A stretch of 64,000 nt of DNA from Raillietiella orientalis (Eukaryota): assembly GCA_036172245.1 (NCBI GenBank), contig JAYWIR010000036.1, forward strand, positions 1,364,001-1,428,000. Reading direction: 5' to 3'. The notes under the pieces were generated by a model. That model saw nothing but the letters and a program-made list of their open reading frames with translations. It made no database searches and was not told where the DNA came from. Position numbers and translations under genes: made by a program. This document shows positions 34,346 through 64,000 of the stretch, piece by piece (within the stretch, counting starts at the first letter, position 1; every line of letters starts with the position of its first letter).

Positions 34346-35799
34346 TGAGTCTCTCAAAATGTTAATTCCTCATACTAATGCACTCAAGTCATTTTATTAA
34401 AAGGTAAATGCGGGTTAAAATTTCACACATCGTAAAGATGTGTTTGATACTATAATTCTACATTCAATTCACTTGCAGGAAAACCGTAAAGCCAAGTTTA
34501 AGGGTAAACCATTAATGTTCAAAATAGAACTTTTCACTTCGCGAAAACACAGTTTCAAACATGTTGTTTTAATATCAATTAAGGGTTACCAGTCTTTTTT
34601 TATTTGAATTAATGTTTTAGCATTTTCTAAAAGATGAGTATTTTGATGAAATCTTTATGTGATGATTTGGCTTCAAAATCCAAATCTTTGAAGGAAATCC
34701 ACCCAGAAATCTTGTATATTAGAAATCTTATAACACTTGTGCACTACAAATTACTACTTAAAGATGAGGACCAAGATCGACGATGTCGCAAATACTATAA
34801 TAAGACGAAAAGAATTCGATTGAAACGAATAAGTTTGTATTCGTTCATTCATTTTTTTTCAGCGCTTATTTATTACTTTCTTACGTCTCAATGTTTAATT
34901 TTTGTCAAATACTTTCCTTTTAAGTATTTACGAAGTTTCTTAAAATGTATGTAAATAAAAATACGACTATCTTTTCTATTGCGTTTTTATGATAGAAACT
35001 GACATAGATATCACGACATATTGAAGTCAGTTCTATTTTGTTTTCTCTTCTGTTGCCTTGTAGCATTGTGAAGTGCTTACTGCAATTCGAGAGATCGCAT
35101 TTTTGCAAATATACCAAATGAACTATCATTAGCGTCTTCACATTTAAATCTTTGTTACAGTATTCATTTGTTGAATGATTGTTCTTTGAAACGAATTTAT
35201 TGAGAAACAAGGCGATGCGTATTCCTTCTTAAAGTTCATAGTCGTTGTGCTCACCTGCAACTGATTCAGGGGACACAAAACTGTATTTTTCTAATAAGAA
35301 TTATGCTTTAGAAGAGGCAGAGTTCTAAGACATAATTTTTCTCAGAATGAATTTTATTCTGGAAAGCTTTTGGGTTCTTTTCTGTCTTCGCTGTTCCATT
35401 CCATCTTTGTTTTTTTGGCTTTTCTTCTTTTGGGTTCGATAAGTACCTCAAGAACCGTCATTCTCCTGGTAGTTCACCCAGCCCTTTAACACTGCTCCAT
35501 GCTTCCCAAGAATGCGTGTTTACGCTTCAAGATAGGGCGACAGTTCAGCTACCTTAAACTGCCCTACGAATGCAGGAAGGGTTCCGAAGAAGGGAGTCCG
35601 TTCTTCTCATGCTTGGGATGGAACCCCGAAGGGAACCTTCCCTCCAGATTGTCTCCTAAGGAATCTCTTCCCTGTTCTCTCTGGAGAGACCTCACAGAGA
35701 AGGCTACTCCTTCGTTTCTATCCGAAGGGATCCCAGAAATGATCCACTCTTGGAATTGCTTCTCCGGAGGGAACTTGCAAAGGAACCGCTCCCTGTTAT

Positions 35800-36180
35800 T
35801 CTTCTGAAGGGTCACTCCCGAAGGGAGCAGCACTCTTCGTCACACTCTGAAGAGGTATTAATCCACCAACTCCATCGTGCGAGATGAAGGAGATCCCGTC
35901 GAGTGGGGAGAGACGACTCCATTTGCACAACTGAAGGGGAACCCCGAAAGACTCCTTGAATCCTGGAAGGACCACGGAGAATCAATTTCCAGTCCTGGCC
36001 AGTCAACGAGGGCATTTGACTTTTTGGCTTCCACCAGTGTCACACCCGAATACAGGCCAACCAGGTCATCTTGCGGGGTGAACTCGAACACGCGACGCAC
36101 CCATTTCTCTGGCGTAGACCTTGCACGTTGGGATTCGAACCCGCGATGCCCGGTACCCCACGCGGAGACTGCAGCCCTCG
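35800..36180. repeat. Diverged interspersed repeat, copy 1 (possible tRNA-derived SINE-like element)
   Basis: Colinear similarity to 37270-37660, with shared blocks ctgaaggg, tcctggaagga, gcttccacca, ggccaaccag, tcatcttg, catttctc and ggagac. Carries a B-box-like GGGTTCGAATCCC on the minus strand (36130-36142). Boundaries are approximate. Confidence 0.6.
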
Positions 36181-37269: not shown

Positions 37270-37660
37270 CGCTCCTCTGAAGGGAATCTCGAAGGGAACA
37301 GCGAGCTTCTGACACTCTAGAGGGTCAACTCCCGAAGGATGAATCAACCAGCTCCGTGGCTTGCGATGGAGGGCTCCCCTCAGCGAGGGGGCTCTCTTTT
37401 CGCCACCAGAAGGGAATCCGAATGCTCCTCGATTCCTGGAAGGATCCCGGAAGGCTACCTTTCAATCTCAGCCACTCGTCGGGATCATCTGGTTTTTTCA
37501 GCTTCCACCACTGCCGCACTCGAAGATGGGCCAACCAGCGTCATCTTGGGGAGGAGGGGGGGGGGGAATCGAACTTACGATGCGTTCATTTCTCGGGCGT
37601 CGACTCTTTCCGAGTATTGGAGCCACGACGCTTGATGCTACGCGTGGAGACCGCAACCAC
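37270..37660. repeat. Diverged interspersed repeat, copy 2 (same orientation as copy 1)
   Basis: Same ordered blocks as 35800-36180. Boundaries are approximate. Confidence 0.6.
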
Positions 37661-39380
37661 GTGGTCTCCGACAAGGGCTGGAGAATAGAAGAATTCCATT
37701 TTTTTTAGGAATGTAGTTTTGCAGTTCGAAATCTCGATGTCTTTTTTTCTCCTTTAGTGCCATTTGTACTTGTTTTTATTTCTTAATGCTCTGTGTCACA
37801 GAAATAAGCTCTAGTTGGAAGAACACTGAGCATTAGATTCTACTTTTAAATGTGCAAATCCCACTTAGCGTTTTTTCTATACAACTATTACTTTATAATG
37901 AGTTTAATGATACCCTGATTATTTTACAATAATGAAAACCGTCAATGATAACCTTGAAACAAAATTTATGCCACTTAAAAAAAAATATGTTGAGTAGTTT
38001 AAGTGAAAAAAATGAGAGCACTTTACAGTGAATTGAAGAATTTGGACGATAGTGTTATGCAAAATACATAACTTTTAGCTTAAAGTATGCCATTTTGAAC
38101 ATATTATGCTAGTTTGTAGTATAATTTGAAGCTAAAAAGCATTTTCTCTTTATTCAGAAACTGAATCCTTATCTTCCACAGCACCTTGGTTAAAAATCTT
38201 TGAAACTCTGTAATGTCAACACCTGTAGTCAAGTCTTCATCTGTAAACAGTAGGATACCAGATCGAGACTGAAAAATCGAAAAAAAAAAAAAAAAAACTT
38301 CCAAGAACAACCAGCAGTCTCTTTTGCCTCCACTTAATCGTGAGAGGAATAAGAAGGAAAAAAATCGTTTTTTTTTTTTTTAGAAAATCTTTCTATTTGA
38401 AGACAGCGATACTTTAAAAAAAAAGAAAAGAAGGATCGTTATCTTAAATATGGCATTTTGGGCTCATGCGTGTTTATTTAATATCCTCTGTTCTTTTGCG
38501 TTCTCCGTGTCATTCTTTAAATGACGTTATTTAGATCGTTTTTTTTCTTCTTCACTAGTCCTTAAATATTTTCTGTGCACTTTAAACTCCTGCAGTTTCT
38601 GATGATCAACAGGAGCACTGAGTACTTTTTTTTTTTTTTTTTGCATATTATTTGGAGTTTTCTTCCCCATATTATTTGATAACGGGGTTTAGGTTAAACA
38701 TATGCATAAATTGTACAATTCTGAGCATCCAATATCCACGGCATTTCTGCCGTAATGGGATGAGTCGCCATCAACATGCACATCACTCTAGCTGGGTTCC
38801 CATGAAACCCAAAACTGATTTCATGGGTTCCGGTTGATGGGTGGCAGGAAACTAGTTTCTAAATGGAAAAGTGGAAATGACATCATCTAAGAGGAAGTGT
38901 CAACAATGCTCTGGATGCAACGCTCTCTTGAAAACCGCTTTCCTTAAATAAGAATCAGACTCAGAGAAATGCTTCATTAATACAGCATCAACATATTAAA
39001 TGTGAATATTTGAGAACCGGACTTACTTTGCATGCTTAGAAATTCGATTCCTCATATCGATGTTTGCAGTCTACTCGAGAAGTACCTCGAGAAAGTTCGA
39101 AAGGATGCAAGCAGAACAATTCTTGCAATGCTCATTAGCACTAAAACAACGTTGAAGTTTACGGTGAGGCTCATACAAATGTCCCTTGTGTAAGCATCTT
39201 CAAATACCTTCTTTTTTTTCTTTTTCTAATCTATGTTGCTTGGATACTACAATCTTCAACAAGTTACCTAGAATATTCGGCACCTCAAATCTTCCACATA
39301 GATTTTTAGCTTTCATGAAAGGGTTAAAATTTTCCATAAGTAATAGACATCCCACGAAATCGGCTAAAACCTGATCTAGA

Positions 39381-40658
39381 ATGGAGACCGACGAAGCTGA
39401 CAGCTGGCGTTCCTCAAGTGTTTGCTCTGTTTCAAGTCGTCAAGCAGCTGGGGAACAGGCCGCCAAACGATGCAGGAGCAAAACGCCAAACTACGAACAC
39501 AGTCACCGGAAATCCCCTCACAAGATGAATCAACAGTTGCATGTTGGAAGAGAACCATGCTATCAGCCTGCGCCCATCCACATAAGCAGCGCAAGAAACG
39601 ACACGTCCCGGGAAGTTGTGTTAGTTGACCAAAGTGACTCCAGCTTCCCATACTCCTCCGATGCTCTCGAGCAGCTCTTATCGACCCACGGACAGAAGGG
39701 AATGACCGGGGCCATGCTGATGCAAGAGAATGATGAGCTGCACAGGAAAATGGCCGCCATGTTGGCTCAGGAACGATTGGAGGCAGATCGCCTTCACAGG
39801 GAAGAACAAAACCTGATACGCAAAATCACTATCGCCAACCAGTCGAAAATTCATTTAAAAGGTGATATCCAGATGTACGTCAAATGGAACGATGATCTAG
39901 AAAAAGGAATCAAAGATGAAAAAAAAACACTGGCCAATTATAAAAAGGACCTGGAGGAAGAACGTGACAAATATGAATCGTATCGAACACGCTTGGCCGA
40001 CCTGACTGCGGAAATACATGATGAAATAAGATTCAGGACTGCAGGGATAAAAAATCAGAACACTGCATTACACGGGTACACTCTTTCTTGTAAATATTTC
40101 TCTATATTCATTCCTAATATTCTGGCGAAGTGGAGAGCACAGCGTTCACGCAAAATGAGAAGAGTTACAGGATTCTCAAACAGCATGTTCTTAGAATCAT
40201 TTGAACTCCTGGCTCCAGTCATTTTAGTCTTGATGCTATTGCTGCTCTTTTACATGTCGGGGATGTTCAAGATCGATTGCAAGTACAGCATGTCGAAGGT
40301 AATCCCCAAAGCTGAAGAGGATACGAGCAAAGCTAAGCCTGAGGACAAAAAAGGCACAGTGGAGGCCAAGAAGCCAGAAGAAAAGGCAAATTCAAATGAT
40401 CAGAAAGCTGGCGACGTTAAAGCCAAGGCAGAGGCTGGCAAACCCGCGAAACCCAAAGAGGCTAAAAAGCACCAGAAGAGAAAACTACGCGACGACGACG
40501 ACAAACTGGAGTACTTCCAAGAATTAGCTCCATTCATGATAGAGGTGGCTGACGAAACACAGTTCGCCGATCAGGAAGCGGTCGCAAGCGAACAGCAACC
40601 GGAGAGGAGTGTCGATGGGACGACGGAGGATTACACACAGGACACCCATTCAAACTAA
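39381..40658 (+). CDS. Hypothetical coiled-coil protein (425-aa ORF) with a central hydrophobic segment and a K/E/A-rich charged tail
   Basis: Long ATG-initiated ORF. It has a heptad-like region (ENDELHRKMAAMLAQERLEADRL...LANYKKDLEEERDKYESYRTRLADL), then LLAPVILVLMLLLLFYM, then a low-complexity KPEEKA/KAKAEAGK tail. No family recognised. Positions 40076-40288 could be an in-frame intron. Confidence 0.65.
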   Translation: METDEADSWRSSSVCSVSSRQAAGEQAAKRCRSKTPNYEHSHRKSPHKMNQQLHVGREPCYQPAPIHISSARNDTSREVVLVDQSDSSFPYSSDALEQLLSTHGQKGMTGAMLMQENDELHRKMAAMLAQERLEADRLHREEQNLIRKITIANQSKIHLKGDIQMYVKWNDDLEKGIKDEKKTLANYKKDLEEERDKYESYRTRLADLTAEIHDEIRFRTAGIKNQNTALHGYTLSCKYFSIFIPNILAKWRAQRSRKMRRVTGFSNSMFLESFELLAPVILVLMLLLLFYMSGMFKIDCKYSMSKVIPKAEEDTSKAKPEDKKGTVEAKKPEEKANSNDQKAGDVKAKAEAGKPAKPKEAKKHQKRKLRDDDDKLEYFQELAPFMIEVADETQFADQEAVASEQQPERSVDGTTEDYTQDTHSN

Positions 40659-41803: not shown

Positions 41804-41862
41804 CCTCTTTTGTCTTCGCAACGTGTCACCGAGATGGTGACACGCTGCGAAGACAAAAGAGG
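41804..41862. repeat. 27-bp stem / 5-nt loop hairpin with one mismatch
   Basis: cctcttttgtcttcgcaacgtgtcacc-gagat-ggtgacacgctgcgaagacaaaagagg. Confidence 0.9.
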
Positions 41863-50456: not shown

Positions 50457-50810
50457 CTAAGAGCTCTTCAAAAACAAAGCGAGGCAGATTACATAAGCAT
50501 AATCAGCAAAAATAGGATCTTCATTAAAAAACTGGGTCATCAAGTAGTTCACAAAGTTGTCCTGAGACCTGTACTTTCGGGACAAGCCTCCCACTGTTGA
50601 CAGACCTTTTTCTATGAACTTATTGGCTATGGTCACACCAACAGCAGGAACTGTATGAATGTCATCCCTTGCTTTCCCTTCCTTTATGAATTTGGCGAAT
50701 TTCTTCGAATTCAACAAAATGGAAAGTCGTTTTGTCACGGCTTCTCGAGGAAGAACACCTTCAAGTTCGGGGTAATTTTTAAATATCCTGGCGACTCGTT
50801 TTCGCGGCAT
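50457..50810 (-). CDS. Divergent BAF-like helix-hairpin-helix protein, copy A (117 aa from MPRKR)
   Basis: LLNSKKFAKFIKEGKARDDIHTVPAVGVTIANKFIEKGLSTVGGL aligns without gaps to BAF [44 protein letters not shown] follows the TAG immediately (50451-50456). The start is chosen by analogy to copy B (MPKR...). The ORF stays open upstream to 51182 and includes another in-frame ATG. Confidence 0.72.
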   Translation of the reverse strand: MPRKRVARIFKNYPELEGVLPREAVTKRLSILLNSKKFAKFIKEGKARDDIHTVPAVGVTIANKFIEKGLSTVGGLSRKYRSQDNFVNYLMTQFFNEDPIFADYAYVICLALFLKSS

Positions 50811-52536
50811 CTCTGCGTCGATCGTTGGTGGATCTGTAAGGACGAGGGTCTTCCGGCTTCCAGGGATGATCGCGCGTGCCCTGCTGGCGGTGGCTGCTGC
50901 CGCGTCTTGGAAGTGAAGGGTCGGAAAGGCGGCTGGAGGAGCCCCGGATGGAAGGGTGAGGAGGAGAAGAAACTCGAACGAAGATGAAGTCGAGAGGTGA
51001 TTGTGGACGTTGCCTTGGTGATACCTTAAGGGGGAGGTCTCGAGGCCAATCGACGCCGCTGCGTCGTCACCGTGGGGTGTGGAACACCCCATAGGACCCT
51101 CCTCACCGGGAAGCGTAGCCGCGGCGCGTCTCGGCAGGTCTCTTTGTGGATCGGCGGGAATCCGTGGCCGGGGAGCTGGCAAGGAAAGGGATTCCGCGCG
51201 GATTCAGCTGCTGAACGCGCCTCTCGCCTGGGGTTCGCTCCAGCTGCGCGCGCAATGGACGACTGCGATTCGAGCGCTGCCTGGCGTGAGCCGAGAAAGG
51301 CCACCTGGAAAGAGACTCCGGTTCTCGCCGACAAGGGGAGGAGGTACCCGTGTATAGGGGTGGCGGAGCAGTTGCACCACAGCTTTTTTATTGAAAAGGT
51401 GTTGCCTTTCTGCGAGCGCGCTCACGGTTCAGCCGCTTTGCACGGGGCGCGCGACCATTCTTCTCCTTCGCGAGGAAGCGTTCTCTGCTTTTGGTCCCAC
51501 AACTTCATCGCCTGGAACACGGCCTCTATGTTGTCCTGGTAGCTCTTGCTTCGGTTGAGAACGTAGTCCCGAAGAATCTCCTCGAAGTCCTGCTTGCTTT
51601 CGTTGCACTCCAGGTACAGGGAGTGCAAGTTGTCCACAGTGAGGTAGGACGCCTGGCGCAGCTGGTCGGCGAAGCTGAAGCCGACACCCGGTATCTTCTG
51701 CACGCCGTCGTACCACTGCACGTTGCTGAGGAAGTCCTGGAACTTCTCGGAGCTCAGCAGTCGGAAGAGCTTAGGGGAGATCTTGGGGGGGAGCGGCGCC
51801 TGCAGCGTGCACTCCAGGTCGTGCAGCACCTTCGATCCCTGCCAGGCTTCTCGCTTGGGCATGCTGGCCAGGCGCGCCGGGCTCAGGGGTCAGGAGGTCT
51901 GGTCGCGCGGGGGAGAGAAGGGGTGAGGCGCAGAAGGCGCCGGTGGGAGAGAGAGAAGGAGTATCGGGACGGGATAGCCGGTGAGCGGGAATTTTTTTTC
52001 ACCTTCCGCTCGAGGGAAGCGGAAATTTGACGATCGATGCTTCCAACAAAACTGGCACGTTTCCTGGGAGACCGTCTGTTTCTTTTCCTCTCTTCCGGAG
52101 GGGAGAGGGGCGAGGCCGCTGATGCCCGCGCGCAAGCCCTCATTGAGAAACGCGCGGCGCGTGAGGCGCGTGCCGACGACGACGATGACGAGGCGAGCAC
52201 GGGCTAGAACCAGAGGCTCGCGTGGCTCCTCGCGGGACACTGGCTGCCGCCTCAAACCCGTGAGGCGGCGTTGGCGCCGTGGCGGCAAGGCTGCGGTCGC
52301 CGCGAAGGTTGGCGGAACGTCGCCGGCACGCGCACGAAACGGATGCCCGCTTGCCGCCGCGCTCGATGCGCAGGCGGATGACAGCGTGTTTCGCGAGACG
52401 CGGACCGGTGTTTCCTGGTCTCCTGGACGAGTCGCTCAGCTCCCTTCCAGCACGATGACGAAGGTCGGACGTCTGCGGAGCGCGGTGGCCGCTCGCCGCC
52501 GTGCGCTGCGGCACCCGCGGGAGCTTCACCAACGCG
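50809..52536. repeat. Left arm of a 1728-bp inverted repeat (palindrome arm)
   Basis: Reverse complement of 61765-63492. Line-by-line manual comparison found 25 substitutions and no indels (~98.6% identity). Confidence 0.97.
51422..51862 (-). CDS. Divergent BAF-like protein, copy B (146 aa, single-exon CDS)
   Basis: LSSEKFQDFLSNVQWYDGVQKIPGVGFSFADQL...FEEILRD...VFQAMKLWD shows the BAF-type S-x-K-x-x-x-F, an HhH PGVG hairpin and a terminal M-x-x-W. AATAAA at 51387-51392 on the minus strand. Confidence 0.82.
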   Translation of the reverse strand: MPKREAWQGSKVLHDLECTLQAPLPPKISPKLFRLLSSEKFQDFLSNVQWYDGVQKIPGVGFSFADQLRQASYLTVDNLHSLYLECNESKQDFEEILRDYVLNRSKSYQDNIEAVFQAMKLWDQKQRTLPREGEEWSRAPCKAAEP

Positions 52537-53255
52537 GCTCTCACGGCTCGACCACGTCTCTCGAAACGCGCAACCACACTTCCCTATGCAAGCCGGTCGG
52601 TGAGCATTGTATCGGTGAACTCAGGGACGCGCGCAGGCCATCGTCTCTTGTGTCTGGACGCGGGTGGAGCTGTGACCGACCCCGCGCGACGTCGCTGTCG
52701 TTCGGTTGTCTTTTCGGCGGCATTGGCGACGACCGGTGCGCGGTCGTGACAACTTACATGCGTGCGAAACGGATCATACGCGACGTTTACTTCTCTTCCA
52801 GTTTAATGGCAAACTTGGGATGCTGCACAGCAATGTGTTGCAGCAACTCCGTCGGGTCCATTTAGGGCATCTGGAAGCAAAGTCCGAAACCGCAGAAGCT
52901 TTGTGGGAGTTTAATTTACGATCCGAAAAAAAAAAAGAGATATAAAACCCGAAAGATGAAGAGGAAAATCGGCGACGTTATAACCTCGGAGTGTCTTTTG
53001 CTTCAAATCTTCGATTTCACCAGAATTTTTTTACGTTGCCTGGATCCCAATGTTGGAGTTGAACTTGATTCGTCACCTTGGATACCATTGAAATTTCACC
53101 CACCCGGCAGAATTTTTCCGAACGTCCTCCTTGCCACACGCATTTCCTCCACCTCGCCAACCTTGCATCATCTTGTTTGGAAGGACCAGTAAGTACGCCG
53201 GAGAAATTCCTGCAGCAAAGGTCCTCTTGCCAGGGGTAAAGAAACAGTCAAAGAG

Positions 53256-53636
53256 ATGTCAGTGAAAGCCATGAAGTCCAGAAAGCAGGAGAGACCCCGG
53301 TCCAAGATGGAAAGGCTGTCGAATTCCGTGAAATTCGAGAAGTTTGTCACCAGCGGAGAACCAACCGACAGCGTACGAGCTGTCCCCGGGATTGGCTACG
53401 TGCTGGCGGAGCACCTGGTCGACAACCAACTGACCACGGTCAGTGACCTGAATGAAGTCTACAAGAAAGCCAGCGAGAACGAGGAGGCCTTCATGAAGTA
53501 CGTGTACGAAGGCATCCTTCAGTCCAACAGGCGCTTCCAGGACAACGTAAAGGTCATCTACTCAGCGCTTAAAGCGTGGAACGGCTCCAGGAGAGGCCAC
53601 CAGAAGGCGTACAAAGCAAGTCAAGTCAAGTGCTAG
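53256..53636 (+). CDS. Divergent BAF-like protein, copy C (126 aa; possibly 211 aa with an upstream exon 52956-53188)
   Basis: SNSVKFEKFVTSGEPTDSVRAVPGIGYVLAEHL...NEEAFMKY...IYSALKAWN is the closest of the six to canonical BAF (S4, K6, F10, V11, V20, GIG-x-VL, L34, E56, F59, L81, W84 equivalents retained). AATAAA at 53648-53653. Confidence 0.85.
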   Translation: MSVKAMKSRKQERPRSKMERLSNSVKFEKFVTSGEPTDSVRAVPGIGYVLAEHLVDNQLTTVSDLNEVYKKASENEEAFMKYVYEGILQSNRRFQDNVKVIYSALKAWNGSRRGHQKAYKASQVKC

Positions 53637-54391
53637 CCAAGTCCCACAATAAAGATGCGGTTTCCATTTGAGACGTTGTCGTTGTGTGCATGCGAGTCAG
53701 GATTGTCTCTAGAATGCACCCTCTACAGCCTCTTCCCAGGGACATCCAGCAAGGGGAAGCGCTACGCTACCTGCCATGGACCATCCTGGAAAGTTCTGGG
53801 CGGTCATCATTTCCAACAGGGAAAGGGACGGGGAACCAGCACGATCGGGAGGAGGGGAAGGGAGGACGGGCGGCGGAGACCCCACTCGGGCGTTTCGGGA
53901 GCCACCGATCCACTTCCGAAGAACAAAAAGAAGGAGAAGGACGGGAATTGCCGTCAGCTCTTCGTGGGGCTCGGAGGGGACGGGGCGGACAGGAACCGGG
54001 GAAGAGGAGGGAGCGTCTTCCTCGTCCTCTGGACCGACCGACCAAACTCTTCCCGGCGGGCGAGGAGCGAAGGCGAGCGCGCGTCTCAGCCGTGCGGACG
54101 CAGCCGGACTGCAGCGCGGCCGACTACTGTTGTCCACTCCCCAAGGGGGCGCTCTCTTAAAGGTTACAAACAACAGCAACGCGCGGCGGCGACGGAGGGG
54201 AGGCGCCGAGGCCATCGGGCCGCCTCTCCTCTGGGCGCGCGCGAGAGCACCGGAGGGTGTTGTCACGGACGGAGAGCGCGCGAGGGGTGGGTGCGCAGCC
54301 GCGCGGCCCGCACCGACCGACCGACCGCCACTCGGACGCGCCTATCGCTCTCCTCCTTCCCTTCCCTTCCCCTCCCCCTTTCCGGCGCCTC

Positions 54392-54424
54392 CATTCCCAT
54401 CGGGTTTCGAACCCGATGGGAATG
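54392..54424. repeat. Perfect 15-bp hairpin in the palindrome spacer
   Basis: cattcccatcgggtt-tcg-aacccgatgggaatg. Confidence 0.9.
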
Positions 54425-57400
54425 CCGACGACGATGACGACTCAAGGGGGCGGTCGTGGCGCCCTCTCCGCTAGCTCCCGCGTAGCGTGCGGGTCGGTGC
54501 CTCCCAGGACCGCAGCCGCCGCGCGCCATCTTCACGTCCCAGCGGCCCGGGGCCCCGCAGGAAGAAGAAGAGGAGGGACAGGGCATTTCCCCCGTGCGCG
54601 TGCCCTCGACCCGCAGTTCCTATCCCCCCCCCCCTCTCGCCCGCAGTCCTACAGCCGCCCTTTCGATGCTCCGCCTTCCCTGCCTCCATCCGGCGCCACG
54701 AACAAGCGCCAGCGAAAATGCGGCGTGTTTCCCCCGCGCGCAGCTTTGCGGACAAAAAAAGAGGGAGGAGAGACGGCGGCGCAGTGACCAGGAGAGGAGC
54801 CAACCGGATCCACGATCGAGGCAGAGGGAAGGTGACCCCGCGGGAGCGCGGGAGATGCCTCTCCGAGTCGCGCGTTCCAGACGGGCGCCACCCTTCTCCG
54901 CGTGCAGCCGGAGCAGAAAGGGAGGACCCCAAGCGACGCATCCTCGCCTGTCCATCGCGGCCTGCGGGCACCGCCAGGCGTGGATGCGCGCTTTCCGTCT
55001 AGCGGCTGCATCACCGGGAAGGGAGGTAGGTCCATCTGGGTGGAGGTGGAGGAGCGCCGTCGGGTCTCCGATCCTCCGTACGAACAGCCATCGTCCACCG
55101 AGGCGCGGACCGACCGTGGAAGCGCCGTGGAGGACAGGCAGGCGGTGCGAGCGGAGGCGCTGCCGAAGGCCTCTCGCGGTCGCCGTCCGAAGCTGCCCGG
55201 GAAAGCGCTGCGTTCGGAAAGCGACCCGGCGCGCCTTTGCCCGAGGCTTCCGAGGCTGCGGAAGCAGGAAGTGCCCCAGCGACGGGCCCGCCGGCAACGG
55301 GGAACGCATCGATGCCCGCCGGATGCCCAGATGAGCTCGCCCTCGCCCGGCCGCGTCCGCACTGGCGACGGCGCTACCAACGAAGCAGCACACTAGGCGA
55401 ACCACGAGCAGTCGCAAGGGTGGAGGAGCGAGCGGATGGTGGACCTCTTCCGGGTCCGTTTCCCGCCCCCAAGCTCCCCGTCTGCTGCCTTCGTCGCATC
55501 CGATCCTCTCCCGCACGCCCACCGGTCCATCCCGTCGCCTCGCCCCACGGGAGAGGCAGACGCCGCCACTCCCCGAAGGGACCGCACCTCAAGGGTGCGC
55601 AGTAGCGGGTCACCGGGAGGCTAACGCAGGACCCGAGAGGCTAACCTTTTGCGCTCCCGACAACGAAAGGGGTGCGTTCGATGCCTTTTCGGCGGGTTCC
55701 AGTCCTATTGTAGGTGCCGCCACACGGTGACACTGCCACTTGGCACGAACGCGACCACCCCTTTGCCCCGCCGCTCGCACGAGGTCGCTTGTCGACTCAT
55801 CCTTGGGCCGAGAAGGCCTTGGAAGGGCTGCAGCGAGATGGTCCAGCGACCAGGAAGATACCCCGAACAGATTTGCGTTGGCAGCGCCGTGATGGGCGTG
55901 GTGTCCCTGCGCCAGGCTGGCGACGCCACTTCCGCGACGGAGGGCCGTCTGCCGCTCTCGCAGCGATCTCCGTGCAATTCGCTCGCCGGCCGGCGGGGGG
56001 CGCTACACCGCGGTGCTGCCGGACGTGGTCCAGGGCAGCACCGAGACCCTCAGCGCGGTGTTTACGCAGGAAGAAGAGCCGCCTTCCAGAGGAGCGGGTC
56101 GCAGATCCGCCAATAGTTCCAGGAGAAGGCAGCTGGGGACAGAAGATGGCGTGCAGTTCGCCCGCCTCTTCGGCGCAAGCCGACGCCATACTGTCGGGAT
56201 GCGACCCAACGTGACCCCGCGGTCCCGCGGGACGTGCTGCGGTCGCCAGCCTCCTAGTCTCCCCTGCTCACGGGGGTCACTTGGGTGGTGCTCGCACGGC
56301 AGCGGTGTGAAGAGGCCTCCCGAGCTGCGCCAGTGACGCGTCGCCGGATTCCTATGATACCATCGTCTTTCCTGGGTGTACCTGGAATCGAGAAACGCGA
56401 GGGGATGGCTGGGTGGCAGCGTCTCAGTAGTCGGCGTGTGGACAGGGATAGAATTTGCTTCGGGGTTTCCTCACCAGCTCTTGCGCTCTTTCGCTCGCTG
56501 GCGCCCTCTGGTTTCTATGCGCTGTCTCCCGTCGGCTTCCGGAAGTCGCCCGAATCTTTGCTAGATGGGGAACCAGAAAGATGCTCTCATGGTCACTCCG
56601 TCTCCCCAGGCAATCGCGACTGCGCTGGTCGCCTCCACTGTCGAGCTGCATCTCTGTTCTCCGTGACGTGTGACCCGCCGACGCGACGAGCACTGTTTTG
56701 TCCCCAGATTCTCGCCTCCAGCGACCTCTCATCTTGGGATGCACTGATGGTCTTCCTTGGAGTGAAGGCGTGCTTCCGCTGCCGTCTACTGCAGAAGAAA
56801 CGATGCTCTCCAAAGATTGAAGCCGTCCGGTGACTGTGCATGCGCGAAGTCTGCTCCTGTGCCCTCCCACCTCCTCCGATAGCACCGCGGAAATCCCAAA
56901 AGCGCTAGCAGCGGTGGGAGTCGTGCCTGCAGATCGAACTGCTGGAGAGCCCCGGCTGCCGAGACGGCGTCCAAGGCTTTCTCGAAGGCGGAAAACAGGG
57001 AGGTGCAGCCGGTCCCGTGCTCTTTTCGTTTCCAGGGAGGCGATGAGGGCCACTGGCGCTCACGGATGCCGGGGTTTCCAAGTTCGCCGCGGTCCCCCGT
57101 TGGACCACCACTCGGTTACGCAGGGACGTGTATTGAAATAAACAAGAAACAACTAACGTTCGAATCAAAGATCGGCCTTGCTAGGCTGCCGGTACGCAGG
57201 CCGTTGAGTTTCACCCTCGGAAGTGGAGGGGAGGGGAGAAACAAAAGGAAAAATAAATATGTAAACACTCTGGAGGGTCATGGTTAGGGATAGCAATCCA
57301 CTGGAAGACGTTCTCTGCATCCTTCCCAGGATGCCGGCAAGTTCTTCCGTATGTTCCCCAGGGGCCATCTGGACGCTATCTTCAGAAAGTGAACTGCAAG

Positions 57401-58383
57401 CTGGATAGCGTTCCTTCCGTTCGGCCCTCTTTCAGCATCGCTCCAGGATGCCACAATCCCACAGAGCTGCCGGGACTGCGGCTGGTGGAAGAGCATCCTG
57501 CACAAGAGGGGTCGAAAAACTTCCCTGGAATTGATCACAAGAGTCCGCTGCGTCTTTCCAGTGAGTTCTCATAGGGACTGGAGTGCAAGACCATGCACGA
57601 GCAGATGCGGGAGAGTGGATTCCAGTTCTCCGCACATGCGACAGTCCGGAATCTCACTCCCTAGTGTCCTGTGATGGAGGCTGGCGCTGCAGGAAAAGAT
57701 CCCAGTGTAACGGAGGAAATGCCGACTCCTGTCATTCCAGGGGGAAAGCGTTGCTGTCCACGAACACCGGGGCCGCTTTGAGTCGGCAGTAAAAACACCG
57801 CCGGGCAGCTCGCCCCTGCGTTGAAGTCCTCGTGGAAGGGTACTTGGGGTCGCAGAGTCGGTCAGTTGGCCCGTAGTCCAAACACTTGTCTTCCTCCTGC
57901 CTGAGATCTCGCAGGAGACCTCCCACCTCTCCAGTTGGCTGCTACCATTCGCTTCTCTCAGGGTGGGCAGCGCCGCGGCCAGAGGGGTGCTCTCCGCCCA
58001 ATCCTGGACTCTCCAGGATCTTCCGCAGCAGGCGCGGATGCCAAGAGCACAGGCAGTTCCACGTCTGTGAGCTGGACTCCTTGATCTTGGTCCAATTGTG
58101 AACCGTTTCTTCTAGCCGGGCGCTAGGGTTGTCAGGGCAGCAGCCGGCCATTTAGCCGCTCTCATGTTCTCATTCGCAATGATGGCTAAACGCTAGAGAA
58201 GGACTCCTCCTCACTCCGGTGGACATGCGGGAGGGAAACACTCAAGTTTAGGTCGTCCCACGGGCTGCAAGGGATGAAATGCCCTTTTCCTTTTGCCTCC
58301 CTCTCCCCAAAATGGAGTCAAGTTCAGGGAGAGTTTATTGCCTCCGAGGTTGCCGACACTCGCTCCCGATGTTTCGCTCTCGT

Positions 58384-59373
58384 TCACTTGTCCTGTCCAT
58401 GGATTCGGTTCCAGTCCTCAAGGGCCTTCGACACGACTTTTAAGTTCTTCTGTAACTGAGCATCGGAATGCAGATAAGAAGCAGAGACCACTTGCTGGAA
58501 CTTCTCTCCGTCTTTGTTGCATCTCAGAAACTCGTCGTACAGGTGCTTCACCCTCGTGATCTCTGCCTCCAGTAGGTAGTGGTACATCCTCGAGTTCACG
58601 CCGGGAATGGCTCTGACCGAGATGCAGAGGTCGTGACAGTTCAGAAATTCTGCGTACAAATCGCTGCTCGAGAGAACGGTGCTCATGTCCGCGACAGCAG
58701 CTAGTCCATTTAAGTGCTCAGCATCATGAGGCAGACTCTGCGACTCCAGAGCAACCGCTTCTACCAGCTCCTTTCCCGCCGAAGATGGCCCATCACGAAA
58801 CGCATCCAATAGAAAAGCGACCGTGGAGGAATCCATTGAGGTATCGCTTTCGGGCCTCGCGAGAAAATCGGAGATCATGGACATTCTCTTTTCCAGCTGG
58901 CAGCACAGGCTAAACCGAAGGATCTCTACGAAGCGCTCCTGGTTGTTAAAGTTTTGAGTGCACACGATCTGTATGTAGTTCCTGATGCTGTTTTCCAGGT
59001 ACGCGAAAAACTGTCTCTGGAGCCGTTCCGGAAGCTGCAGCTTGAGGGCCAGCAGTTCCATCTGGTCAGGATTCAGATGGAACTGCAGTTGCGACGTCTC
59101 CTCGCTGTCTGCGAGGGAAGACCTGGACAGCTTGTTGCCGCTTCTCGGTCGGGGTCGGAATTGAGCGCCGTCGGGACCTTTTCCAGTCCACGCCTGTGAC
59201 TCCTTAGAATATCCTGATCCCTCGGCAGTCGAGGAAGGAATATTGCAAACAAGGAAGAAATTGTTCACTGCTGATTCCACGAACTGATAGAACGCGTCCC
59301 CCTCGTCTTTAAATATGTCCTCATATTGGATGAGCGCACTTTCCCGTGCTGAAGATTTCCTTCTGGCTTGCAT
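58384..59373 (-). CDS. BAF-like domain protein, copy C' (329 aa): unrecognised ~230-aa N-terminal region fused to a C-terminal BAF-like domain
   Basis: First ATG at 59373 in a gccATG context (the ORF track starts at an upstream GTG). The C-terminus reads LSSSDLYAEFLNCHDLCISVRAIPGVNSRMYHYL...FLRCNKDGEKF...NLKVVSKALEDWN. AATAAA at 58334-58339 on the minus strand. Confidence 0.8.
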   Translation of the reverse strand: MQARRKSSARESALIQYEDIFKDEGDAFYQFVESAVNNFFLVCNIPSSTAEGSGYSKESQAWTGKGPDGAQFRPRPRSGNKLSRSSLADSEETSQLQFHLNPDQMELLALKLQLPERLQRQFFAYLENSIRNYIQIVCTQNFNNQERFVEILRFSLCCQLEKRMSMISDFLARPESDTSMDSSTVAFLLDAFRDGPSSAGKELVEAVALESQSLPHDAEHLNGLAAVADMSTVLSSSDLYAEFLNCHDLCISVRAIPGVNSRMYHYLLEAEITRVKHLYDEFLRCNKDGEKFQQVVSASYLHSDAQLQKNLKVVSKALEDWNRIHGQDK

Positions 59374-61764
59374 GGCGCCCCCTGAAGGTCCCAGCAAAAG
59401 TTTTCCCGAGCAGGATATCCTCCTGTCCTTGCGCGGCACTCAGTAACGCTCCCGGGATTCGCCTACTTCTTCTTCCAGACAGGCGGATACAAGCGGAGAG
59501 GAGCGGGAATTCCCTTGCAGCTCGCAGTAGCCTCCTGAAGCCTCCGCTCCCACTGGCACAGAGCACACCTACCGACAAGAAGAAAGAGAAAAACACTCGA
59601 CTTGGAAATTTCAAATTTTCGTCCGAGAAGGTGGTTTCCAGGCAACGCACTCTTTGCGCGCGGCATCTGGCTCCTCCATCCGCTCGCCGCGCTCCGGGAG
59701 GCGTCTCGCTGGCAGGCGGGGACCGCAAGAGTCGTAAGGAGGCGACCGGGAGCACGGAGATACGGGAACCGGACAAAGAATTGGGAAGAAGGAAGGGAGG
59801 AGGGTTCCGAAGCTGGACGTATGGAGTCGAGGAGCACCCGAAGATGCGTCAGTACCATCCTCTCTGCTATGCAAGCTCTGGGGCCAGCTTCCTCTACTCA
59901 CCGTAGGGGATTTTCCGATGTCGTCCCCATCACCTCCTCCACGCGAATCGCACGCAGGCTGCACATGAGCTGCACCTCATCGAGCGCATAACCGTCCTTG
60001 GGCGAGGCATCCAGCAGAACCTCTGCTGTCCACTCCGGGGTAGCGTGGGGTTGAAAGGCTACCAGCCCCGAGGGTTTTCATCACCCTGGATCGGCAACAT
60101 CGAGGCACTGTCTACCCCTCATCGTCATCCCGTCTGCCCGGATCCTCGGCACTTCTCTTGAAGAAATTGATCGCAAGCAAATGGTACCCTGCCCCGAAAA
60201 AGGCCGCGAGCAGTATCGCGGAAGGGCCCATCGATGCACATGAGTTCGCACTCGCGTAATGCGCACCTCACTTTCGCCTCCCGCTGGCTTTCGGGACCTG
60301 CGAAGAGAAGCACGCCGCTCAGCTGAGACCGAGTCTGCATCAGAGAGGCCCCAGCGACCGAGTCGGGAGGGGAGAAGAGATGTCAGGGCGAAGAGCAGTG
60401 AACATCAAGCTCTACGCCTCGGACGAATGGCAAGGCACTCCCACGCAGAGCTGTCTCGAAGATCAGCCGCAAGCGTATCCAATTGTTCCCACCAGCGGCC
60501 ATGTCCACCGCTCTCAGGAAGAGCCGTAGCAGACATGGGCAAAATCCCACCAAAAGCGCGTCCTCGAACGCGATGACCAACATCCGCCCCGGAAAGGACG
60601 CTTCCTCCTCCACGAAGGCTCCTCGTACGCACGCGTCTCCAGGTGTGCAACGGAAACTGCGGCACCCTGGAGTGGAGCACATCCGTCTCAAGACAAGCGC
60701 TCGAATGAAGAACGCGATTCAGCGTCCGCAAGCCGTCGGCTGAACCACTCCACCCGCTGGGAAGTTGAAGACCTGAAGTCCGCCTCGCGGACATGAGGCC
60801 CCTCAGCAGGCGCGACGGCGCACGCGCGAAGCAGCCTCGGACCGGCCAGCGACCACCGGTAAGCACGCGACCGAGCAGAATGCGAGACGGAGGTACCAAC
60901 ACCAATCTCCAGAAATCCCCACCCTGCCGGTCACCCGGTCTTGCACCACGGGCACGCCTCTCACCTGAGCTCATTGCGCAGACAAGGGCTCACCGCGCCA
61001 CGCTTCGGGTGCCGGGCCGGACCATGCGCTGCATACCAACAAACAAAGAGCTTCCGCGCGCACCTGGGAAACCGCAAGCAGAGGCGTCCGAGGCAAAGCC
61101 ACTGAAAGCGAGCCACAGTGGAGAGCGCACGGCGCCACGGAGTGCATCTTCGTAGAAGCCTAAAGCACAAGTGAACAGCCAGCAGCTGGCGCCCCCCTTC
61201 CCGCTCAGCATCTTCGAGTATCTCCCTTGAAGTCCGAGGAGAACCGCTCCTTACAGCCGCGCATGCAAGCGAACCTCGGAAGGAAGCGTCGCTGATGCTT
61301 CCAGGTGGCTGCGAGAAGATCGCGTACTCTCGTTACCGGGTCACCCAGCCGGCGGCTCAGAACAATCGACACCACTCTTTCCGAGTTCCGTTCTTATGGA
61401 AGAGCGACCTCGTGAGCAGTGTCTCGATGTCACGTTCAGGACTCTCTCCAGAAAATGCAAAACGTCGTGCGGATGATTTCCGAAAATCCTCACAAAAGGG
61501 ATCGCCCTCCCTTTCTCCCCTTCACCGGTCGCCAAGGCATCCCTTCCCTACAGCAGAAAAGACCAAAGGCATCAAGGAGTCCTCTCGCGGGCTGATCTCG
61601 CGTCACGAGTCCGCCAGTCGACAACCTTTCGGTGCGAGAGCAGTAGTTTAGGTAGTTAGGTCGCGGCGCTCCGGACAGGTGCTAAAACAAAGCACTGAGC
61701 CGGGCAACCCATGCACCTGGTTCCAGCAGAGCGGACGCGCTCTCGCGCGAGACTCACCTGGCGT

Positions 61765-63492
61765 CGCGTTGGTGGAGCTCCCGCGGATGCCGCAGCGCAC
61801 GGCGGCGAGCGGCCACCGCGCTCCGCAGACGTCCGACCTTCGTCATCGTGCTGGAAGGGAGCTGAGCGACTCGTCCAGGAGACCAGGAAACACCGGTCCG
61901 CGTCTCGCGAAACACGCTGTCATCCGCCTGCGCATCGAGCGCGGCGGCAAGCGGGCATCCGTTTCGTGCGCGTGCCGGCGACGTTCCGCCAACCTTCGCG
62001 GCGACCGCAGCCTTGCCGCCACGGCGCCAACGCCGCCTCACGGGTTTGAGGCGGCAGCCAGTGTCCCGCGAGGAGCCACGCGAGCCTCTGGTTCTAGCAC
62101 GCGCTCGCCTCGTCATCGTCGTCGTCGGCACGCGCCTCGCGCGCCGCGCGTTTGTCGATGAGGGCTTACGCGCGGGCATCAGCGGCCTCGCCCCTCTCCC
62201 CTCCGGAAGAGAGGAAAAGAAACAGACGGTCTCCCAGGAAACGTGCCAGTTTTGTTGGAAGCATCGATCGTCAAATTTCCGCCTCCCTCGAGCGGAAGGT
62301 GAAAAAAAATTCCCGCTCACCGGCTATCCCGTCCCGATACTCCTTCTCTCTCTCCCACCGGCGCCTTCTGCGCCTCACCCCTTCTCTCCCCCGCGCGACC
62401 AGACCTCCTGACCCCTGAACCCGGCGCGCCTGGCCAGCATGCCCAAGCGAGAAGCCTGGCAGGGATCGAAGGTGCTGCACGACCTGGAGTGCACGCTGCA
62501 GGCGCCGCTCCCCCCCAAGATCTCCCCTAAGCTCTTCCGACTGCTGAGCTCCGAGAAGTTCCAGGACTTCCTCAGCAACGTGCAGTGGTACGACGGCCTG
62601 CAGAAGATACCGGGTGTCGGCTTCAGCTTCGCTGACCAGCTGCGCCAGGCGTCCTACCTCACCGTGGACAACTTGCACTCCCTGTACCTGGAGTGCAACG
62701 AAAGCAAGCGGGACTTCGAGGAGATTCTTCGGGACCACGTTCTCAAACGAAGCAAGAGCTACCAGGACAACATAGAGGCCGTGTTCCAGGCGATGAAGTT
62801 GTGGGACCGGAAGAAGAGAATGCTTCCTCGCAAAGGAGAAGAATGGTCGCGCGCCCCGTGCAAAGCGGCTGAACCGTGAGCGCGCTCGCAGAAAGGCAAC
62901 ACCTTTTCAATAAAAAGGCTGTGGTGCAACTGCTCCGCCACCCCTATACACGGGTACCTCCTCCCCTTGTCGGCAAGAACCGGAGTCTCTTTCCAGGTGG
63001 CCTTTCTCGGCTCACGTCAGGTAGCGCTCGAATCGCAGTCGTCCATTGCGCGCGCAGCTGGAGCGAACCCCAGGCGAGAGGCGCGTTCAGCAGCTGAATC
63101 CGCGCGGAATCCCTTTCCTTGCCAGCTCCCCGGCCACGGATTCCCGCCGATCCACAAAGAGACCTGCCGAGACGCGCCGCGGCTACGCTTCCCGGTGAGG
63201 AGGGTCCTATGGGGTGTTCCACACCCCACGGTGACGACGCAGCGGCGTCGATTGGCCTCGAGACCTCCCCCTTAAGGTATCACCAAGGCAACGTCCACAA
63301 TCACCTCTCGACTTCATCTTCGTTCGAGTTTCTTCTCCTCCTCACCCTTCCATCCGGGGCTCCTCCAGCCGCCTTTCCGACCCTTCACTTCCAAGACGCG
63401 GCAGCAGCCACCGCCAGCAGGGCACGCGCGATCATCCCTGGAAGCCGGAAGACCCTCGTCCTTACAGATCCACCAACGATCGACGCAGAGAT
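61765..63492. repeat. Right arm of the 1728-bp inverted repeat
   Basis: Reverse complement of 50809-52536. Confidence 0.97.
62439..62879 (+). CDS. Divergent BAF-like protein, copy B' (146 aa, near-identical to B)
   Basis: 11 nt and 8 aa differences from 51422-51862. AATAAA at 62909-62914. Confidence 0.82.
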   Translation: MPKREAWQGSKVLHDLECTLQAPLPPKISPKLFRLLSSEKFQDFLSNVQWYDGLQKIPGVGFSFADQLRQASYLTVDNLHSLYLECNESKRDFEEILRDHVLKRSKSYQDNIEAVFQAMKLWDRKKRMLPRKGEEWSRAPCKAAEP

Positions 63493-63532
63493 AGGGGAAA
63501 GGAGTACAAAATAGATCATCTGCAAATTCTCC

Positions 63533-63946
63533 ATGCTGAAGGAGACCCTCCCAGAGTCCCTGCCGCTACCGATTCACAGGGTTCTGAGCTCGCGGAAGTT
63601 TGCCCGCTTCGCGAAGAAGGTGCGAAGCGCGGATGTCGTCAAGAGAGCTGCCGGCGTGACCGCCGAGTTGGCTGCACTGCGGAGAGCGGACCACGTATAT
63701 ACCGTAGGGCAGCTGTTCGCGAACTGCATGCTCGACAACTACTTCGTGTTCAACCTTCACGAAGACACGTTTGGAGGACACCCCTATGACAACGCTTACC
63801 TGATCCACCTCGTCATGACTACGTACGCATTCAGGCAACACAACGGCCTTGACACCATGGAACGGACGAAGGGCAAGGGGGGGTCTTCCTCGGTAGACCT
63901 GCAGCCCAACAAAACAAACCTTTCGTCCACTCCACCATCCCGCTGA
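63533..63946 (+). CDS. Highly divergent BAF-like protein, copy A' (137 aa; possibly decaying)
   Basis: VLSSRKFARFAKKVRSADVVKRAAGVTAELAALRRADHVYTVGQL...FVFNL...DNAYLIHL is colinear with copy A. The position matching A's start codon is ATA (63491-63493), followed by an in-frame TAG (63512-63514). No AATAAA in the 54 nt left in the window. Confidence 0.6.
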   Translation: MLKETLPESLPLPIHRVLSSRKFARFAKKVRSADVVKRAAGVTAELAALRRADHVYTVGQLFANCMLDNYFVFNLHEDTFGGHPYDNAYLIHLVMTTYAFRQHNGLDTMERTKGKGGSSSVDLQPNKTNLSSTPPSR

Positions 63947-64000
63947 TTCCATTTCCAGTGGTCGAAGCGAAAGCAACCGCAGCCGGGGTCCCGCGGCAAC

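What the first reader, a model, noticed from the sequence alone, without database searches (positions are those of the whole stretch)
50809..63492. 1728-bp arms at ~98.6% identity nested inside a much older inverted duplication: a signature of arm-to-arm gene conversion
Seen: the arms are exactly the same length with no indels and 25 substitutions (4 in the outer 613 nt, 11 in the 441-nt CDS, 10 in the inner 674 nt). The outermost ~450 nt are identical. Nucleotide identity stops abruptly at both ends, yet protein-level mirror homology continues outside (A/A') and inside (C/C'). The spacer is 9228 bp. Inference: one recent duplication cannot produce near-identical and deeply diverged mirror partners together. 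Recurrent intrachromosomal conversion or inversion between the arms can. Established analogy: gene-bearing palindromes on sex chromosomes are maintained this way. The arms could also flip the spacer.
Basis: partly seen in the sequence, partly recalled or inferred. Interest (0 to 1): 0.82.

Follow-up and report, generated by a model that had tools for sequence, protein, structure and literature searches.

The report
Palindromes carrying many BAF-like genes
In an arthropod genome, mirror-image DNA copies seem to overwrite each other in patches while leaving the protein-coding parts different, and they carry a large, fast-changing family of relatives of the DNA-packing protein BAF.

Summary
The 1728-bp inverted repeat is real and exactly as described. 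It is only one of three near-identical inverted pairs: beyond the window lie two more (3484 bp, 99.8%; 2654 bp, 99.7%). These frame an older mirror duplication of about 13-15 kb per arm whose middle has diverged to 73% (non-coding) and to saturation (genes D/D'). The genes are divergent BAF-fold proteins. I tally 48 such loci on 20 contigs, with no close relative in the databases searched. Two other loci repeat the pattern: a 19.2-kb palindrome at 99.93% (C3), and an inverted copy on C1 with 0.7% difference upstream but 12.3% in the coding sequence. Two of six tract ends sit at start codons. Best reading: repeated ectopic gene conversion, halted by selection at coding sequence (0.65). No reads, relatives, sex linkage or expression data were available, so serial recent duplication (0.22) and assembly error (0.08) remain. 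The mechanism is known; the BAF-like expansion is the unusual part.

The parts
50809..52536 (.). IR1 arm 1: upstream region of gene A, all of gene B, and B's upstream region
61765..63492 (.). IR1 arm 2 (inverted, 98.55%): upstream region of B', gene B', upstream region of A'
50809..51241 (.). 433-nt segment present three times (also 63060-63492 inverted, and 78309-78741 beyond the window with 1 mismatch); lies upstream of A, A' and A''
50457..50810 (-). Gene A, divergent BAF-like ORF (117 aa from the ATG at the arm end); only the first two bases of its ATG lie in the arm; GC3 0.44
   Evidence: no Pfam hit, matches the family profile
51422..51862 (-). Gene B, BAF-like, 146 aa
   Evidence: Pfam SAM_BAF 26.7 bits, cut-off 25
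53256..53636 (+). Gene C, BAF-like, 126 aa, head-to-head with B; closest paralogue is F at 79.9-80.3 kb, beyond the window
   Evidence: (26.1 bits)
53786..56439 (.). IR3 left arm (99.66% to 87762-90415 beyond the window, inverted); a copy of the 5' region of a serpin gene, with perfect identity ending 5 codons into the inferred signal-peptide start
57172..57909 (.). Remnant of a dispersed repeat (probably the 3' end of a non-LTR retroelement); a collinear copy lies in the right arm at 60%, but other copies in the genome are closer (67-77%)
58384..59373 (-). Gene D, 329 aa, C-terminal BAF-like domain; its only full-length relative in the genome is D' in the right arm (34% identity)
59392..59695 (-). 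Non-coding block upstream of D, 73% identical to the block upstream of D' (82923-83209, inverted)
62439..62879 (+). Gene B', 146 aa, 138 of 146 residues identical to B; predicted BAF fold
63060..64000 (.). In-window part of IR2 left arm (63060-66543; 3484 nt, 7 mismatches to 75258-78741), which carries A' and gene E
63533..63946 (+). Gene A', very divergent BAF-like ORF (137 aa); the position matching A's ATG reads ATA and an in-frame TAG follows at codon 8, so it starts from a later ATG or is decaying

Best explanation
An old inverted duplication in a cluster of BAF-like genes is being overwritten in patches by ectopic (arm-to-arm) gene conversion. SHOWN: two collinear mirror arms (53.8-66.5 kb and 75.3-90.4 kb, coordinates = contig C36 minus 1,364,000) carry at least four age layers: 0.06-0.2%, 2.0%, 27% and saturated. 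Two tract ends fall at start codons, in register with faint older homology. INFERRED: the 1728-bp pair is a long homology-directed copy between the A/B region and the B'/A' slot, anchored at the A/A' start, that probably replaced an F-like gene; its outer 470 nt were re-homogenised later. Tracts stop at coding sequence because running on would destroy A's ATG or the serpin's signal peptide, so regulatory DNA is shared while proteins diverge. INFERRED, weaker (about 0.4): the proteins are DNA-compacting BAF-fold factors under diversifying pressure, used in germ-line chromatin or against foreign DNA.
For: Mirror order IR3 (99.66%), repeat remnant (60%), D/D' CDS (102 of 307 residues; 23 of 37 four-fold sites differ), D 5' block (73%), IR2 (99.8%). 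D and D' are each other's only full-length relatives (120 bits against 37 or less). Layers differ: 25/1258 in inner IR1 against 2/3470 in the IR2 core (P=7e-13) and 6/2644 in the IR3 core (P=4e-8). Longest mismatch-free run in IR1 is 470 nt, P=0.008. Past the IR1 outer end the A and A' frames align from the arm end with a one-codon gap; anchored DNA similarity was reached by 12 of 1000 shuffles, and past the IR3 outer end by 11 of 1000. Independent locus C1: inverted copies about 0.41 Mb apart differ at 14 of 1984 upstream bases but 52 of 423 coding bases (P=3e-28), with synonymous sites also about 10% apart, and an ~80% island lies between 99% flanks. C3: 19,187-nt arms, 13 mismatches, two BAF-like genes per arm. 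Divergence peaks inside converted duplicates are the published signature of selection against conversion (PMC3924837 passages; PMC2588116 passages).
Against: No outgroup or population data, so the defining test (paralogues closer than orthologues) was not done. Of 6 tract ends, 4 show no significant residual homology: IR1 inner 360/1000, IR3 inner 354/1000, IR2 outer 649/1000, IR2 inner 75/1000; the two positive values are modest and not corrected for six tests. B' and its mirror-slot partner F share no clear DNA similarity, and F is closer to C than to B'. A/A' sisterhood is unresolved. The repeat remnant is closer to copies elsewhere than to its mirror partner. The start-codon coincidence was noticed after the fact, and the serpin start is inferred from a leucine-rich run. 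No GC bias among IR1 differences (12 against 11), and GC-rich domains are genome-wide (controls 0.34-0.65). dN/dS above 1 on C1 (1.5-1.6) is not significant (P=0.38 and 0.18 for the two pairs tested); B/B' is 0.73.
Confidence: 0.65

Rival explanations
1. Serial recent inverted duplications (template switching or similar) in a duplication-prone gene cluster, without ongoing conversion. Each near-identical block is simply young, and the old protein similarity reflects a family of paralogues.
For: The family duplicates often, in tandem too (C166: 3.1 kb at 96.8%). Four of six tract ends are sharp, with no detectable homology beyond them. C/D and A/A' similarity is at family background level. GC steps at arm ends (0.41 to 0.57-0.66 at 50.8 kb) fit GC-rich DNA pasted beside AT-rich DNA.
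Against: Needs three separate events that all land inverted and in mirror order around D/D', one in register with A's start codon. It does not explain a 470-nt identical tract beside 2% divergence, nor the C1 copies with 0.7% upstream and about 10% synonymous coding divergence.
Confidence: 0.22
2. Assembly artefact: mis-joined haplotype, fold-back chimeric reads, or polishing that homogenised repeats.
For: No sequencing reads could be examined. Identities of 99.8-99.9% are what collapsed or cross-polished repeats give, and 1.45% is within a plausible range of arthropod heterozygosity (my recall). Polishing could inflate identity inside real repeats.
Against: Each arm has its own unique flank on both sides, inside a 2.25-Mb contig. 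Allelic mis-joins and fold-backs do not make intact genes that are 34% identical in between. Arms of 1.7-3.5 kb are shorter than typical long reads. No N in the window or the next 100 kb.
Confidence: 0.08
3. Inversion with staggered breaks, or a transposon whose terminal inverted repeats are the arms.
For: Staggered-break inversions leave inverted duplications at breakpoints (recalled; PMC3355041 seen only as a search listing). IR1 and IR3 are interleaved.
Against: The duplicated blocks are not adjacent in pairs at two breakpoints and differ in age. No target-site duplication flanks IR1. No transposase or integrase domain in the 6 spacer ORFs scanned. The arm has no copy on other contigs among scored candidates.
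Confidence: 0.05

Closest known systems
Gene-bearing palindromes of mammalian Y and X chromosomes (e.g. human P6; PMC3723533 abstract)
   Same: Inverted arms around a unique spacer that carry multicopy genes. Near-identity as expected from conversion; tract scale (1.7-3.5 kb) matches the reported mean of about 2 kb. The C3 palindrome (19.2 kb, 99.93%) fits the classic form.
   Different: IR1 is short and 98.55%, below the >99.9% of Y palindromes. On C36 only patches are homogenised. The neighbours are ordinary conserved genes (Bre1, ING, a serpin). Sex linkage, testis expression and GC bias are not shown.
Duplicated genes under interlocus conversion with a peak of divergence (opsins, Drosophila Pre28 block; PMC3924837 and PMC2588116 passages)
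   Same: High identity in flanks and a sharp rise in divergence in coding sequence (C1: 0.7% against 12.3%).
   Different: Here the whole CDS is the peak, some partners are saturated, and tracts end at start codons. The orthologue comparison those studies rely on is missing.
Palindromic collinear blocks in the springtail Folsomia candida (PMC5490193 passages)
   Same: Arthropod genome with gene-family copies arranged as inverted duplications.
   Different: The authors found wide Ks ranges and rejected concerted evolution there; the blocks here reach 99.7-99.9%.
BAF (BANF1) and its vertebrate paralogue BAF-L/BANF2 (PMC13443024 passages; PMC8877947 abstract)
   Same: Same fold: the model of B' has human BAF as its top 8 Foldseek rows (target TM 0.83-0.89, rmsd 1.6-2.0 A). 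Pfam SAM_BAF reached for B and C.
   Different: About 17% identity to human BAF, longer N- and C-termini, and dozens of copies beside one canonical gene on C14. BAF-L is a single, testis- and pancreas-expressed paralogue with 53% similarity.

Membership tests
Conversion-maintained palindrome (Y/X ampliconic type) | Inverted arms around a unique spacer, carrying genes | tested here: met
Conversion-maintained palindrome (Y/X ampliconic type) | Arm-to-arm identity above 99% (above 99.9% on the human Y) | tested here: not met
   IR1 98.55%. Neighbouring IR2 99.8% and IR3 99.66% and C3 99.93% do exceed 99%.
Conversion-maintained palindrome (Y/X ampliconic type) | Arms closer to each other than to orthologous arms; duplication predates speciation | not testable with these tools
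   The genome has no relatives in the collection. Internal age layers are indirect support.
Conversion-maintained palindrome (Y/X ampliconic type) | Sex-linked location and germ-line-biased expression | not testable with these tools
   No run was listed. Flanking genes are Bre1 and ING.
Conversion-maintained palindrome (Y/X ampliconic type) | GC-biased conversion | tested here: inconclusive
   GC3 0.64-0.87 for eight cluster genes against 0.44 for A and 0.39 for canonical BAF, but differences cannot be polarised and GC-rich domains are common in controls.
BAF family (PF02961) | Reaches the Pfam cut-off of 25 bits | tested here: inconclusive
   B 26.7 and C 26.1 pass; B' 23.5, D 18.7-18.9 and D' 23.7 fall short; A and A' have no hit.
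BAF family (PF02961) | BAF all-helical fold | tested here: met
   B' model pLDDT 75; top 8 rows human BAF, probability 1.0, E 0.005-0.07. The alignment used for folding held canonical BAF as 1 of 15 rows.
BAF family (PF02961) | Helix-hairpin-helix G-hydrophobic-G motif for DNA contact (motif detail recalled; HhH role in PMC13443024) | tested here: inconclusive
   Alignment A1: kept in B, B', C, E and F; altered in A, A', D and D'.
BAF family (PF02961) | Homodimer that bridges DNA and binds LEM-domain proteins | not tested
   No complex prediction was obtained.
DNA transposon with terminal inverted repeats | Target-site duplication, mobility enzyme, dispersed copies | tested here: not met

The most novel reading that the evidence does not exclude
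A little-sampled arthropod lineage has turned the normally one- or two-copy BAF gene into about 48 fast-evolving paralogues. Palindromes amplify them, and conversion keeps their upstream regulatory DNA synchronised while selection holds the coding sequences apart. The result would be a co-regulated but diversified set of DNA-compacting proteins in a germ-line or antiviral arms race.
Probability: 0.3. Interest if true: 0.82.

Novelty: new variant of a known kind. Interest (0 to 1): 0.58.

Why it matters
Arm-to-arm conversion itself is textbook. What would matter is the cargo and the pattern. BAF is one of the most conserved chromatin proteins, and a several-dozen-copy divergent family was not seen in the paper listings I searched (top 20-25 rows of 489, 947, 43 and 92 hits). 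Tracts that end at start codons, and a replicate on C1 where upstream DNA is 0.7% apart and coding DNA 12%, give a natural test of how selection bounds gene conversion, and of whether palindromes can share promoters among diverged paralogues away from known sex chromosomes.

Tried and rejected
Sequencing runs: none was listed for window 52000-61900, so junctions, depth, spacer orientation and expression were not examined. Dimer prediction for B': no verdict was obtained. Single-sequence homologue search with B': 0 of 2 candidates passed. Profile searches returned canonical-type BAFs at 15-24% identity to B' among the 120 listed of 555, and nothing close among the best 150 of 721 representatives (best BLASTP 52 bits for any divergent paralogue). 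Spacing argument (B' to D 3066 nt, F to D' 2952 nt): dropped, because about 870 nt of the right interval is a dispersed element also found on C7. Repeat remnant as proof of the old mirror: downgraded. Mobilisation by that repeat: present at 7 of 18 BAF-like 10-kb loci against 6 of 40 control loci, P=0.085; 27 ORFs scanned gave only a sub-threshold zf-RVT hit and one weak MFS hit. GC-richness as a palindrome signature: rejected, controls are as GC-rich. Long GC-rich ORFs in the spacer: no Pfam hit, treated as non-coding. The tree left most branches open (15 of 28) and was built on 25 genome sequences and 6 named BAFs, not all 48 loci. Flanks were fetched for only part of the family (8 of 18 further loci wanted). 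Paper supplements were not consulted; a gene-family table there could hold an earlier mention of such an expansion.
Full report
OBSERVATION. The repeat is as described: 50809-52536 and 61765-63492, 1728 nt, 25 mismatches, no gaps, 9228 nt apart. The 4/11/10 split of mismatches is right, and the outer 470 nt are identical. Four 100-kb control stretches hold no inverted pair of 500 nt or more at 95% (best: 558 nt at 91%, 224 nt at 94%).

HOST AND GENES. The window is G000:C36:1,364,001-1,428,000 of a 210-Mb assembly in 491 contigs. Its AT-rich part holds intron-rich Bre1 and ING genes. A Bre1 exon is at most 77-78% identical to a centipede, a stomatopod and Daphnia, so the host is an arthropod with no close relative in the database; I did not place it further. 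The single-exon ORFs around the repeat are divergent relatives of barrier-to-autointegration factor: B and C pass the Pfam SAM_BAF cut-off, B' and D fall short, A and A' have no Pfam hit but match a profile of the family. A model of B' (pLDDT 75) has human BAF as its top eight structural matches (target TM 0.83-0.89, E 0.005-0.07, none under 0.001). The Atlas search agrees (0.93). A canonical BAF lies on C14.

THE STRUCTURE IS LARGER THAN THE WINDOW. Coordinates below are contig position minus 1,364,000. Two more inverted pairs exist: IR2, 63060-66543 / 75258-78741 (3484 nt, 7 mismatches, 5 of them in the last 14 nt), and IR3, 53786-56439 / 87762-90415 (2654 nt, 9 mismatches). A 433-nt piece is present three times, upstream of A, A' and A''. 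Eleven BAF-like genes lie here: A(-) B(-) C(+) D(-) B'(+) A'(+) E(+), an 8.7-kb spacer that is mostly AT-rich, then E'(-) A''(-) F(-) D'(+). Between IR3 and IR2 the two sides stay collinear but old: a repeat remnant at 60%, D/D' at 102 of 307 residues with 23 of 37 four-fold sites different, and a 300-nt block upstream of D at 73%. D' is the only full-length relative of D in the genome (120 bits against 37 or less). IR3's right copy is the 5' region of a serpin gene.

The inner mirror does not hold as a specific pair: C is closest to F (85 bits) and D to D' (77 bits; 97/91 support), while C/D scores 40. A/A' is unresolved in the tree, and A' has a very long branch. The outer end is nevertheless informative. 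The arm stops two bases into A's ATG; the other arm reads ATA there, and from that base the two frames align with a one-codon gap up to the conserved core, with a TAG at codon 8 on the A' side. Anchored DNA similarity past this end was matched by 12 of 1000 shuffles. Past IR3's outer end, where perfect identity stops five codons into the inferred serpin start, it was 11 of 1000. The other four ends gave 75, 354, 360 and 649 of 1000. So two of six ends look homology-directed and four do not.

AGE LAYERS. The inner 1258 nt of IR1 differ at 25 sites, the IR2 core at 2 of 3470 and the IR3 core at 6 of 2644 (P=7e-13 and 4e-8). A mismatch-free run of 470 nt in IR1 has P=0.008 under random placement. 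At least three or four episodes are therefore needed. B and B' differ by 8 non-synonymous and 3 synonymous changes (dN/dS 0.73), so coding constraint does not explain their similarity.

REPLICATES ELSEWHERE. Single-protein and profile searches give 48 distinct BAF-like places on 20 contigs by my tally. Two have E above 0.02 and were not checked, at least one is broken (C28), and the tool states that counts are lower bounds. On C3 a palindrome has arms of 19,187 nt with 13 mismatches, an 11.2-kb spacer and two BAF-like genes per arm. On C1, inverted copies about 0.41 Mb apart differ at 14 of 1984 bases upstream of the ATG but 52 of 423 in the CDS (P=3e-28). Synonymous sites are also about 10% apart, which fits exclusion of conversion from the CDS better than fast protein change alone, and an island of about 80% identity sits between 99% flanks. 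dN/dS there is 1.5-1.6, not significantly above 1 in the two pairs tested; older pairs show purifying selection (C/F 0.23, D/D' 0.50) and a tandem pair on C166 gives 0.61.

MECHANISM. Most likely (0.65): an old inverted duplication is overwritten in kilobase tracts by ectopic conversion. IR1 is a copy between the A/B region and the slot between D and A', anchored in A/A' homology, probably replacing an F-like gene, and its outer part was refreshed later. One more base of conversion into arm 1 would have removed A's start codon, and further conversion into the serpin would have damaged its signal peptide; selection can thus fix the tract ends. This last step is inference and was noticed after the fact. 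Published work describes the same logic as peaks of divergence in converted duplicates (PMC3924837 and PMC2588116, passages) and multi-kilobase tracts with rare inversions in a human Y palindrome (PMC3723533, abstract). Rivals: serial recent duplications (0.22), assembly artefact (0.08), staggered-break inversion or transposon (0.05). The spacer could in principle flip, but its present orientation is the one collinear with the right arm.

FUNCTION OF THE GENES. BAF dimers bind DNA through a helix-hairpin-helix motif and act in nuclear assembly and antiviral defence; BAF-L is testis- and pancreas-expressed (PMC13443024, passages) and affects the histone-to-protamine exchange in mice (PMC8877947, abstract), although the reference list of the former also cites a study finding it non-essential. 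B, B', C, E and F keep the G-hydrophobic-G motif; A, A', D and D' do not (motif detail recalled). I commit, at about 0.4, to DNA-compacting proteins under diversifying pressure in the germ line or against foreign DNA. Nothing here tests expression or binding.

NOVELTY. Conversion between inverted duplicates is known, and palindromic gene blocks are reported in a springtail, where the authors found no concerted evolution (PMC5490193, passages). PMC3403216 was read only as passages on sex-chromosome theory and added nothing specific. I found no report of a large BAF-like expansion in the listings of four searches, nor of tracts ending at start codons in one search (6 papers listed); these searches are limited to open-access text and top rows. 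Verdict: a real structure, a new variant of a known kind, interest 0.58.

Noticed in passing
G000:C3:1103040-1152586 (L071-L076): 19.2-kb-arm palindrome at 99.93% with a nested 693-nt perfect inverted repeat in each arm and several 71-95% internal repeats; GC drops to 0.34 just past the right arm.
   Followed up: partly
G000:C1:11.49-11.99 Mb (L085-L087, L137): Five BAF-like genes among direct and inverted duplications of 90-99% identity spread over 0.5 Mb; clear coding-sequence divergence peak.
   Followed up: partly
G000:C166:26001-46000 (L135, L136): Tandem array of about 3.9-kb units with four BAF-like genes, two of them identical, on a 49.5-kb contig.
   Followed up: partly
L012:5349-5670 and 7641-7962: 322-nt direct repeats at 89% flank gene F; not found elsewhere among scored candidates.
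   Followed up: partly
L013:5986-8268 and L014:6244-6831: Serpin gene with a long low-complexity N-terminal extension in a GC-rich domain.
   Followed up: partly
window 1-64000 and control loci L090-L129: The genome is a mosaic of about 30% GC domains with intron-rich conserved genes and about 60% GC domains, with sharp transitions.
   Followed up: partly
window 39375-40658 (+): 427-codon open frame with coiled-coil-like and lysine-rich stretches and a hydrophobic segment; no Pfam hit.
   Followed up: no
window 35751-36152 and 37272-37604: Dispersed repeat at 67-80% with further copies at about 99 kb, 115 kb and 155 kb in extended coordinates.
   Followed up: no
window 41804-41862: 27-bp near-perfect hairpin with a 5-nt loop.
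   Followed up: no
window 52601 (+) and 61757 (-), approximate: Splice-donor-like GTGAG motifs just inside the spacer at both inner arm ends, suggesting the inner arm is a bidirectional promoter for B/C and B'/D.
   Followed up: no
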